DNA from: Escherichia coli | GTDB lineage: Bacteria > Pseudomonadota > Gammaproteobacteria > Enterobacterales > Enterobacteriaceae | Strand: one strand, 5' to 3' | Length of the DNA stretch: 64,000 nt | Assembly: GCF_002854065.1 (NCBI RefSeq) | Contig: NZ_CP024147.1 | In this document: piece after piece, positions 24,834 through 29,796 of the stretch | Numbering within the stretch: position 1 is the first letter of the stretch | Layout: every line of letters starts with the position of its first letter | The notes under the pieces: generated by a model | Seen by the model: the letters and a program-made list of their open reading frames with translations, nothing else | Told to the model about the DNA's origin: nothing | Database searches by the model: none | Made by a program: the position numbers and the translations under genes

Positions 24834-28200
<3,367 letters not shown>

Positions 28201-28266
28201 TCAGTAAAAGCGAATGGAGGGAGATTACACGAGATAAAGAACGCGAGCGACAGTAAATTAGGTGCG

Positions 28267-28354
28267 AAAAAAAACCTGCGCATCCGCGCAGGTTGGTGCA
28301 AGAGACAGGGTACGAAGAGCGTACCGAATAATCTCACCAATCAATACCTCTGGG
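28267..28354 (-). ncRNA. omrA: OmrA small regulatory RNA
   Basis: Minus strand reads CCCAGAGGTATTGATTGGTGAGATTATTCGGTACGCTCTTCGTACCCTGTCTCTTGCACCAACCTGCGCGGATGCGCAGG followed by a U-run; GC-rich terminator hairpin; aas–galR intergenic location. Confidence 0.85.
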
Positions 28355-28469
28355 ATCTTGATTGTGGTCTGCACGACGACTCTTCGCCAGCGAGAAAACG
28401 CAAAGGAATGAAGGGAAATGCAACGAGGTGTGTAAATTGTCGGTTACTGTTACAGTTTGATGACCGGCA

Positions 28470-28551
28470 AAAAAAAACCTGCGCATCTGCGCAGGCTGGT
28501 GTAATTCATGTGCTCAACCCGAAGTTGACTTCACCTATCAATACCTCTGGG
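28470..28551 (-). ncRNA. omrB: OmrB small regulatory RNA
   Basis: Minus strand reads CCCAGAGGTATTGATAGGTGAAGTCAACTTCGGGTTGAGCACATGAATTACACCAGCCTGCGCAGATGCGCAGG followed by a U-run; shares 5' and 3' ends with OmrA. Confidence 0.85.
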
Positions 28552-28764
28552 ATCACCACTTTAGCAACCTGAAGCCAAACGCCACCAGCGGTCAATCGCA
28601 ACAGCGTTTCGCAAAGTGTAACCAAAGGTTTGCAATCTCTTTTTTTGTCTTACTTATTTGCGTTTGGCTCACATTCCCACGATGAAAACACGCCGCCCCT
28701 TGAACCAACGGGCGTTTTCCGTAACACTGAAAGAATGTAAGCGTTTACCCACTAAGGTATTTTC

Positions 28765-29796
28765 ATGGCGACCATAAAGGATGTAGCCCGACTGGCAGGC
28801 GTTTCAGTCGCCACCGTTTCCCGCGTCATTAATAATTCACCCAAAGCCAGCGAAGCGTCCCGGCTGGCTGTGCATAGTGCAATGGAGTCTCTTAGCTATC
28901 ACCCGAACGCCAACGCCCGTGCGCTGGCGCAGCAGACCACTGAAACGGTCGGTCTGGTCGTTGGTGATGTTTCCGATCCGTTTTTCGGTGCAATGGTGAA
29001 AGCGGTCGAACAGGTGGCTTATCACACCGGTAATTTCTTATTGATTGGCAACGGTTACCACAACGAACAAAAAGAGCGTCAGGCTATTGAGCAACTGATC
29101 CGCCATCGCTGTGCTGCGTTGGTCGTCCATGCCAAAATGATCCCAGATGCTGATTTAGCCTCATTAATGAAACAAATGCCCGGTATGGTGCTGATCAACC
29201 GTATCCTGCCTGGCTTTGAAAACCGTTGTATTGCTCTGGACGATCGTTACGGTGCCTGGCTGGCAACGCGTCATTTAATTCAGCAAGGTCATACCCGCAT
29301 TGGTTATCTGTGCTCTAACCACTCTATTTCTGACGCCGAAGATCGTCTGCAAGGGTATTACGATGCCCTTGCTGAAAGTGGTATTCCGGCCAATGACCGG
29401 CTCGTGACATTTGGCGAACCAGACGAAAGCGGCGGCGAACAGGCAATGACCGAGCTTTTGGGACGAGGAAGAAATTTCACTGCGGTAGCCTGTTATAACG
29501 ATTCAATGGCGGCGGGTGCGATGGGCGTGCTCAATGATAATGGTATTGATGTACCAGGTGAGATTTCGTTAATTGGCTTTGATGATGTGCTGGTGTCACG
29601 CTATGTGCGACCGCGCCTGACTACCGTGCGTTATCCAATCGTGACGATGGCGACCCAGGCTGCCGAACTGGCTTTGGCGCTGGCGGATAATCGCCCTCTC
29701 CCGGAAATTACTAATGTATTTAGTCCGACGCTGGTACGTCGCCATTCAGTGTCAACTCCGTCGCTGGAGGCCAGTCATCATGCAACCAGCGACTAA
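28765..29796 (+). CDS. galR: Galactose operon repressor (LacI family)
   Basis: 343-aa ORF starting MATIKDVARLAGVSVATVSRVINNSPKASEASRLAVHSAMESLSYHPNANARALAQQ (LacI-type HTH). Confidence 0.95.
   Translation: MATIKDVARLAGVSVATVSRVINNSPKASEASRLAVHSAMESLSYHPNANARALAQQTTETVGLVVGDVSDPFFGAMVKAVEQVAYHTGNFLLIGNGYHNEQKERQAIEQLIRHRCAALVVHAKMIPDADLASLMKQMPGMVLINRILPGFENRCIALDDRYGAWLATRHLIQQGHTRIGYLCSNHSISDAEDRLQGYYDALAESGIPANDRLVTFGEPDESGGEQAMTELLGRGRNFTAVACYNDSMAAGAMGVLNDNGIDVPGEISLIGFDDVLVSRYVRPRLTTVRYPIVTMATQAAELALALADNRPLPEITNVFSPTLVRRHSVSTPSLEASHHATSD

What the first reader, a model, noticed from the sequence alone, without database searches (positions are those of the whole stretch)
28267..28551. 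Tandem paralogous sRNAs OmrA and OmrB between aas and galR
Two adjacent sRNA genes share near-identical 5' ends (CCCAGAGGTATTGAT) and terminators but have divergent central regions. This is a known arrangement, noted here because the ORF track cannot see it.
Basis: established knowledge. Interest (0 to 1): 0.2.

Follow-up and report, generated by a model that had tools for sequence, protein, structure and literature searches.

The report
OmrA and OmrB small RNAs

Summary
Confirmed and already known. Rfam's OmrA-B model (RF00079, gathering score 40 bits) matches full length twice on the minus strand. One match is at 28354..28267 (96.6 bits, 88 nt) and the other at 28551..28470 (86.1 bits, 82 nt). 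Both are 100% identical to the annotated omrA (b4444) and omrB (b4445) of E. coli K-12 MG1655. They lie in the same aas–galR intergenic region.

The two RNAs share 20 of their first 21 nt and 32 of their last 35 nt. Their central parts (32 and 26 nt) do not align. In 147 distinct copies from 120 Enterobacterales loci, the terminator helix is paired in every copy, with compensatory changes at 4 of its 8 pairs.

Published K-12 experiments carry over because the sequences are identical. These are Hfq-dependent RNAs whose transcription OmpR~P activates. Their 5' end pairs with mRNAs such as ompT, cirA and ompR and represses them. In my own duplex calculation, nt 1-9 landed on the published ompR and ompT sites.

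The only difference from K-12 near the RNAs is a ninth T in the OmrB tail. Interest is low.

The parts
28267..28354 (-). omrA, 88-nt small RNA (5' end at 28354, 3' end at 28267)
   Evidence: RF00079 match of 96.6 bits over model positions 1-87. 100% identical to MG1655 omrA b4444. Folds at -29.5 kcal/mol, z -2.68 against shuffles, with nt 1-15 unpaired.
28470..28551 (-). omrB, 82-nt small RNA (5' end at 28551). The T run continues one base further, to 28469, in this strain.
   Evidence: RF00079 match of 86.1 bits over model positions 1-87. 100% identical to MG1655 omrB b4445. The extra base at 28469 relative to K-12 comes.
28334..28354 (-). OmrA nt 1-21, the conserved 5' target-pairing region (CCCAGAGGTATTGATTGGTGA)
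   Evidence: 20 of 21 nt identical to OmrB. Unpaired in the predicted fold up to nt 15. Nt 1-9 pair in silico with ompR -19..-11 and ompT +12..+20, the sites shown by compensatory mutation in PMC2588501.
28531..28551 (-). OmrB nt 1-21, the conserved 5' target-pairing region (CCCAGAGGTATTGATAGGTGA)
   Evidence: and PMC2588501.
28267..28294 (-). OmrA intrinsic terminator: hairpin 28273-28294 and T run 28267-28274
   Evidence: Terminator scan. In 147 family members the 8-pair helix is paired in 100% of cells, with both-side changes at 4 pairs.
28469..28497 (-). OmrB intrinsic terminator: hairpin 28476-28497 and a run of 9 T reaching 28469
   Evidence: Terminator scan, covariation count and comparison with K-12.
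28361..28428 (-). omrA promoter region. The -10 hexamer CACAAT is at 28361-28366, with C at -13 (28367). Conserved upstream blocks TTTGCGTTTT (within 28392-28406) and GTTGCATTT (within 28412-28428) are inferred OmpR sites.
   Evidence: Positions. Conservation across 45 tandem loci. No consensus sigma-70 promoter was found, as expected for an activator-dependent promoter. OmpR-P activates the -114..+50 fragment in vitro (PMC5175337). RpoS dependence of omrA is reported in PMC12692685. Assigning the blocks to OmpR is inference.
28558..28625 (-). omrB promoter region. The -10 hexamer TAAAGT is at 28558-28563. Conserved upstream blocks GTTGCGATTG (within 28589-28603) and GGTTACACTTTG (within 28609-28625) are inferred OmpR sites.
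   Evidence: and PMC5175337. Assigning the blocks to OmpR is inference.
26020..28179 (-). aas, the flanking gene downstream of omrA on the same strand (context, not part of the RNAs)
   Evidence: 719-aa ORF. Annotated aas in the matching E. coli records. A co-oriented aas starts within 400 nt of the last Omr copy in 58 of 76 loci.
28765..29796 (+). galR, the flanking gene divergent from omrB (context)
   Evidence: 343-aa ORF. Annotated galR.

Best explanation
The region holds two independently transcribed, tandem paralogous small RNA genes on the minus strand: omrB (28551..28470) followed by omrA (28354..28267). Each has its own weak-consensus promoter, activated by phosphorylated OmpR, and its own intrinsic terminator. 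omrA also depends on the stationary-phase sigma factor RpoS.

The RNAs bind the chaperone Hfq. They use their shared, unpaired 5' end to base-pair with short complementary stretches near or upstream of the ribosome-binding sites of many mRNAs. Targets include ompT, cirA, fecA, fepA, ompR-envZ, csgD, flhDC, flgM, dgcM and btuB. Pairing blocks translation, and for ompT and cirA it also triggers RNase E-dependent decay. Because ompR is itself a target, the pair forms a negative feedback loop on its own activator. The divergent central parts and promoters give each RNA some targets and inputs of its own.

Shown here: the identity of the sequences, family membership, the anatomy, conservation of the terminator structure, synteny, and in-silico pairing at the published ompR and ompT sites. 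Taken from published K-12 experiments on identical sequence: Hfq dependence, OmpR and RpoS control, and target repression. Inferred: that the conserved GTTRCA-type blocks at about -50 and -70 are the OmpR sites.
For: Family and identity:
- Two full-length RF00079 hits of 96.6 and 86.1 bits against a gathering score of 40. No other family reaches its threshold in the intergenic region.
- Both RNAs are 100% identical to MG1655 omrA and omrB (annotation).
- The whole aas-galR spacer differs from K-12 at only 3 positions (28456, 28469, 28695). All lie outside omrA -101..+88 and omrB -143..+82.
- The 701-nt stretch is present in 5423 of 5426 complete E. coli genomes, at 99% identity or more in 5315.

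Structure and conservation:
- Each copy has a strong terminator hairpin plus T run.
- Across 147 distinct copies from 120 Enterobacterales loci, the terminator helix is 100% paired with compensatory changes at 4 of 8 pairs. Slid controls give 17-53% paired cells over the whole tested structure (13 pairs), against 96.0% in register.
- TTnCACC before the terminator is invariant although it was not part of the search pattern.
- Nt 1-15 of OmrA are unpaired in the predicted fold.

Pairing:
- RNAduplex puts nt 1-9 on ompR -19..-11, overlapping the Shine-Dalgarno GGGAG. For OmrA this is -22.1 kcal/mol, matched or beaten by 3 of 300 shuffles.
- It puts nt 1-9 on ompT +12..+20, at -22.0 and -20.2 kcal/mol for OmrA and OmrB, matched or beaten by 9 of 300 shuffles each.
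- These are the regions proven by compensatory mutations in PMC2588501.

Promoters:
- The promoters lack a consensus sigma-70 match.
- They carry conserved blocks at about -50 and -70 in 45 tandem loci.
- OmpR-P activates both promoters in vitro (PMC5175337).
- RpoS dependence applies to omrA only (PMC12692685).
- Separate transcription units in the aas-galR region are described in PMC13425233.
Against: Nothing in the sequence argues against it. There are four limits.
- No expression data exist for this strain, so transcription, Hfq binding and OmpR dependence are carried over from K-12 on the strength of sequence identity.
- The cross-species invariance of nt 1-21 is largely imposed by the search pattern used, so it is not independent evidence.
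- The GGUG/CACC helix never varies, which says nothing for or against that pairing.
- Unrestricted duplex prediction did not recover the published short cirA site and was not better than shuffles. The OmrB-ompR duplex was also not clearly better than shuffles (31 of 300).
Confidence: 0.97

Rival explanations
1. The repeats are the starts of small protein-coding genes rather than non-coding RNAs. An example is the mechanical ORF 28340..28104 (78 aa, TTG start), which begins inside OmrA.
For: The ORF list shows minus-strand ORFs of 78 aa (28104..28340) and 50 aa (28334..28486) overlapping the RNAs.
Against: The 78-aa ORF runs through the strong terminator and into the aas start region. Family members range from 72 to 112 nt, with lengths of every remainder modulo 3 between the fixed 5' and 3' blocks. 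The central parts do not align between paralogs, so no reading frame is conserved. What is conserved is a helix with compensatory changes.
Confidence: 0.01
2. Only one copy is functional and the other is a decaying duplicate.
For: The two RNAs share targets and were first described as redundant (PMC2588501). Some Enterobacteriaceae carry only one copy (PMC13425233).
Against: Both copies match the full model. Both keep intact terminators and conserved promoter blocks. Both are identical to the K-12 genes, which are each expressed and have specific regulators and targets: RpoS for omrA; RstA in multicopy, dgcT and RydC for OmrB. OmrA-type and OmrB-type bodies each stay recognisable across many genera, which indicates selection on both.
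Confidence: 0.02
3. The elements act mainly in cis, as a leader or attenuator for the co-oriented downstream gene aas, through terminator read-through, rather than as trans-acting RNAs.
For: In 58 of 76 loci with enough sequence, a co-oriented aas starts within 400 nt of the last copy. The median gap is 97 nt; it is 87 nt in the window.
Against: Each copy ends in a 9-pair, GC-rich hairpin followed by 8-9 T, which suits efficient termination. Trans-regulation through the 5' end is proven by compensatory mutations on unlinked targets (PMC2588501). Read-through was not tested here. This could be an additional property, not a replacement.
Confidence: 0.03

Closest known systems
omrA (b4444, formerly rygA/sraE) and omrB (b4445, formerly rygB) of Escherichia coli K-12 MG1655; Rfam RF00079
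   Same: Identical sequence (88 and 82 nt), order, strand relation and flanking genes. Identical core promoters, with the nearest difference at omrA -102.
   Different: The OmrB T run is 9 T here against 8 in K-12, from an extra base at 28469. There are two further substitutions in the spacer, at 28456 and 28695. None lies inside the annotated RNAs.
Omr loci of other Enterobacterales (Citrobacter, Enterobacter, Kluyvera, Serratia, Edwardsiella, Hafnia, Pantoea, Erwinia and others)
   Same: The same 5' 21-mer, the TTnCACC motif, the terminator helix and, usually, linkage to aas. In Enterobacteriaceae the copy on the galR side has the OmrB-type body and promoter, and the copy on the aas side has the OmrA type.
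   Different: Elsewhere the central parts differ and the terminator stem carries compensatory variants (CCTACGC/GCGTAGG, CCCACGC/GCGTGGG). Some genera have one copy. Pantoea and Erwinia have two copies about 2 kb apart. Some single-copy Enterobacteriaceae have an OmrA-type body behind an omrB-like promoter, as reported in PMC13425233.
RybB, another Hfq-dependent enterobacterial sRNA that represses outer-membrane protein mRNAs through a conserved 5' end (comparison made in PMC2588501)
   Same: A 5'-end seed, multiple envelope-protein targets, and dependence on Hfq and RNase E (otherwise established knowledge).
   Different: An unrelated sequence and a different regulator (sigma-E rather than OmpR; established knowledge, not tested here). 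It is a single gene, not a tandem pair. No Rfam RybB match occurs in this window.

Membership tests
OmrA-B sRNA family (Rfam RF00079) | Score at or above the curated gathering threshold of the covariance model, over the full length | tested here: met
   96.6 and 86.1 bits against 40, covering model positions 1-87 of 87 for both.
OmrA-B sRNA family (Rfam RF00079) | Conserved 5' end CCCAGAGGUAUUGAU(N)GGUGA, which is the target-pairing region | tested here: met
   Present at 28354..28334 and 28551..28531, with 20 of 21 nt identical between the copies. Pairs in silico with the published ompR and ompT sites.
OmrA-B sRNA family (Rfam RF00079) | 3' intrinsic terminator hairpin plus poly-U, preceded by UUnCACC | tested here: met
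   Terminator scan. The helix is 100% paired with 4 compensatory pairs in 147 members. TTnCACC is invariant.
OmrA-B sRNA family (Rfam RF00079) | [quoted passage not shown] | tested here: met
   aas at 26020-28179 (-) and galR at 28765-29796 (+). Synteny in related genomes.
OmrA versus OmrB assignment | Sequence identity of the central region to the K-12 reference genes | tested here: met
   28267-28354 is identical to omrA and 28470-28551 is identical to omrB, both at 100%.
OmrA-B sRNA family (functional definition) | Transcription activated by EnvZ-OmpR | not testable with these tools
   Only indirect evidence. The core promoters are identical to K-12, and OmpR-P activates those in vitro (PMC5175337). 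GTTRCA-type blocks at about -50 and -70 are conserved.
OmrA-B sRNA family (functional definition) | Hfq binding and Hfq-dependent repression of targets | not testable with these tools
   Shown for the identical K-12 RNAs (PMC2588501). Here only the terminator and U tail typical of Hfq-binding sRNAs are seen.

The most novel reading that the evidence does not exclude
The most novel reading not excluded is a functional coupling between the Omr RNAs and the lysophospholipid-recycling operon aas-lplT. The Omr genes lie directly upstream of a co-oriented aas in 58 of 76 Enterobacterales loci that extend at least 1.5 kb downstream, with a median gap of 97 nt. They do so even in loci where galR is not adjacent. 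This could reflect partial terminator read-through that puts aas under OmpR/RpoS control. Such coupling would sit on top of the known trans-acting role. A smaller variant of the idea is that the 9-U OmrB tail of this strain changes termination or Hfq binding relative to K-12.
Probability: 0.05. Interest if true: 0.3.

Novelty: already known. Interest (0 to 1): 0.05.

Why it matters
It matters only as annotation. OmrA and OmrB are important, well-studied regulators of outer-membrane composition, iron uptake, motility and biofilm formation in E. coli. Automatic protein-centred pipelines, including PGAP records identical to this stretch, leave them unmarked. Marking them prevents the 585-bp aas–galR spacer from being read as empty, or as containing spurious small ORFs. 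No new biology follows from this window.

Tried and rejected
1. The sigma-70 consensus promoter scan of 28100-28800 found nothing. I do not read this as absence of promoters. Both are known activator-dependent promoters with poor -35 elements, and their -10 hexamers (CACAAT, TAAAGT) sit at -12..-7.

2. Unrestricted RNAduplex of the first 30 nt against cirA -130..+40 chose a long, non-significant duplex far upstream (z -0.3 and +0.5). It did not choose the published 9-bp site at the ribosome-binding site. Short seeds cannot be separated from chance by this statistic. The OmrB-ompR duplex was also weak (31 of 300 shuffles as good).

3. A permissive Rfam search of the spacer gave only sub-threshold chance matches, such as Leu_leader at 27.8 and 23.2 bits against 50. 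These come from the terminators.

4. The GGUG/CACC long-range helix of the Rfam model could not be tested. Four pairs never vary, and the fifth pair (nt 16 with nt 61) is unpaired in 77 of 147 copies.

5. The coding reading of the overlapping ORFs was rejected.

6. A hairpin upstream of galR (28686-28722) was folded. It is unremarkable on the + strand (z -0.45) and moderately stable on the minus strand (z -2.7). I did not pursue it further.

Full report
**Observation**

Reading 27900-28900 shows the reverse complement of CCCAGAGGTATTGAT, that is ATCAATACCTCTGGG, twice on the + strand. The copies end at 28354 and 28551. A GC-rich inverted repeat next to an A run lies about 60-80 nt to the left of each. 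The features are therefore real but lie on the minus strand.

A scan of the whole window against Rfam 15 at gathering thresholds gives three hits.
- RF00079 OmrA-B at 28354..28267: 96.6 bits, E 6.4e-18.
- RF00079 OmrA-B at 28551..28470: 86.1 bits, E 2.3e-15.
- A tRNA at 46513..46443.

Both OmrA-B hits cover model positions 1-87 of 87, against a gathering score of 40 bits. The finding's coordinates are exactly the outer limits of these two hits.

The two copies share 20 of their first 21 nt and 32 of their last 35 nt. Their central parts are 32 and 26 nt long and do not align. The terminator scan reports a 9-pair, 6-GC hairpin followed by a T run for each.

**Identity**

The 701-nt stretch 28100-28800 occurs in 5423 of 5426 complete E. 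coli genomes. It is at 99% identity or more in 5315 of them, almost always once per genome, under aas and galR annotations.

In NC_000913.3 the same spacer carries ncRNA features omrA (b4444, 88 nt) and omrB (b4445, 82 nt), both on the minus strand. The gene order is aas - omrA - omrB - galR. The window's two sequences are base-for-base identical to those features.

The whole aas-galR spacer differs from K-12 at three positions.
- 28456: T versus A, which is omrA -102.
- 28469: an extra base that lengthens the OmrB T run from 8 to 9.
- 28695: G versus A, which is omrB -144.

The RNAs and their core promoters are therefore unchanged. A PGAP-annotated RefSeq record that is 100% identical over the stretch lists only aas and galR.

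**Related sequences**

All that carry an informative organism name are Enterobacterales; two MAGs are labelled only 'Proteobacteria bacterium'.

From these loci I extracted 145 further distinct family members of 72-112 nt, which with the two window copies make the 147 rows of alignment A2. The invariance of nt 1-21 in this set is imposed by the search pattern and is not independent evidence.

Three features are independent of the pattern.
- The TTnCACC motif before the terminator is invariant.
- The 8-pair terminator helix is paired in 100% of cells.
- Four of its pairs show changes on both sides, for example CCTGCGC/GCGCAGG against CCTACGC/GCGTAGG and CCCACGC/GCGTGGG.

Sliding the 3' partners by 1 to 3 columns drops pairing over the whole tested structure (13 pairs) from 96.0% to 17-53%. 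The GGUG/CACC helix of the Rfam model never varies, so it is neither supported nor contradicted.

A co-oriented aas starts within 400 nt of the last copy in 58 of 76 loci with enough sequence, with a median gap of 97 nt. A divergent galR lies within 400 nt in 54 of 84 loci.

In Enterobacteriaceae tandem loci, the galR-side copy has the OmrB-type body and promoter and the aas-side copy has the OmrA type. Several single-copy loci combine an OmrA-type body with a promoter closer to omrB. This reproduces what PMC13425233 reports. It would fit a deletion by recombination between the shared 5' ends, which is my inference.

**Mechanism**

The predicted folds leave nt 1-15 of OmrA single-stranded. They show a central hairpin and the terminator, at -29.5 and -26.6 kcal/mol with z -2.7 and -2.9.

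Using K-12 target sequences, RNAduplex places nt 1-9 (CCCAGAGGU) on two published sites.
- ompR -19..-11, overlapping the Shine-Dalgarno GGGAG. For OmrA this is -22.1 kcal/mol, matched or beaten by 3 of 300 dinucleotide shuffles.
- ompT +12..+20. The energies are -22.0 and -20.2 kcal/mol for OmrA and OmrB, matched or beaten by 9 of 300 shuffles each.

These are the regions for which PMC2588501 proved pairing by compensatory mutations. That paper also showed dependence on Hfq and RNase E. The published short cirA site was not recovered by unrestricted duplex search.

No consensus sigma-70 promoter is found. The -10 hexamers CACAAT and TAAAGT lie at -12..-7. Blocks resembling GTTRCA at about -50 and -70 are conserved in 45 tandem loci. 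OmpR-P activates both promoters in vitro on -114..+50 templates (PMC5175337). omrA is additionally RpoS-dependent and omrB is not (PMC12692685). RstA in multicopy activates omrB specifically (PMC13425233). Because the window's sequence is identical to K-12 over these regions, these results apply directly. Assigning the conserved blocks to OmpR is my inference.

**Rivals**

*Coding ORFs.* The mechanical ORFs overlapping the RNAs are rejected. Family members vary in length by non-multiples of three, the centres do not align, and the 78-aa ORF crosses a strong terminator.

*One dead copy.* This is rejected because both copies match the full model, keep conserved promoters and equal the expressed K-12 genes.

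*A cis role for aas.* Read-through into aas cannot be excluded but has no direct support.

**Comparison and novelty**

This is the reference OmrA/OmrB locus itself, not a variant. Every sequence-level defining feature of RF00079 was tested and met. The functional features (OmpR control, Hfq binding) cannot be tested with these tools, but they were established on identical sequence.

Novelty: already known. Interest: low (0.05).

**Seen in passing**

The rest of the window is collinear with K-12 from amiC to yqeG and from xdhA onwards. The ETT2 remnant is rearranged and carries three identical IS1 copies and an IS2.

Noticed in passing
window 39419-48204: Relative to K-12, the ETT2 segment yqeH..ygeO (K-12 2987252-2996360) is missing. 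In its place are two tandem, 100%-identical IS1 copies (39419-40188, 40212-40979). After them come a type III secretin N-terminal fragment ORF cut by IS1 (40975-41922, minus) and an AraC/EivF-like regulator (41919-42668, minus). Next is a 559-aa GH15-like ORF (43260-44939, minus) abutted by an IS2 (44912-46243), which is inverted relative to K-12 IS2H. A third IS1 lies in inverted orientation at 47435-48204. No complete E. coli genome in the collection covers 80% or more of 39000-48400 in one place.
   Followed up: partly
window 46443-46513 (-): A tRNA gene (Rfam tRNA, 71.6 bits) with anticodon CCC. It corresponds to glyU of K-12.
   Followed up: partly
window 28469: The T run of the OmrB terminator is 9 T in this strain against 8 in K-12 MG1655. 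Many E. coli genomes share the window's version, since twelve listed records are 100% identical over 28100-28800.
   Followed up: partly
window 28686-28722: An imperfect hairpin flanked by an A tract and a T tract (GAAAACACGCCGCCCCTTGAACCAACGGGCGTTTTCC), 43-79 nt upstream of the galR start codon. It carries one difference from K-12, at 28695. Its loop is too long for the terminator scan. The 71-nt minus-strand context folds at z -2.7 and the + strand at z -0.45. Its function is unknown.
   Followed up: partly
L011 2747-4879 (Pantoea stewartii); also L024, L038, L056, L060, L069, L084, L112: In Pantoea and Erwinia the two Omr copies are about 2.0-2.1 kb apart instead of about 200 nt. In L011 the interval holds a 579-aa ORF on the same strand (2936-4675). 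By eye it looks like a class B penicillin-binding protein (FtsI-like); it was not searched. The second copy has a distinct terminator stem, CCCACGC/GCGTGGG.
   Followed up: partly
L040, L083, L117 (Mangrovibacter and relatives); L050 (Hafnia): Both tandem copies have nearly the same central region, rather than one OmrA-type and one OmrB-type. This suggests a separate duplication or homogenisation by gene conversion in these lineages.
   Followed up: no
E. coli genome collection: Three of 5426 complete E. coli genomes have no match to the aas-galR stretch. Two matching places lie on records labelled as plasmids.
   Followed up: no
NZ_CP032986.1 (L002) and other PGAP records: RefSeq PGAP annotation does not list omrA or omrB, although the sequence is 100% identical to the window. 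Only the curated NC_000913.3 record does.
   Followed up: yes
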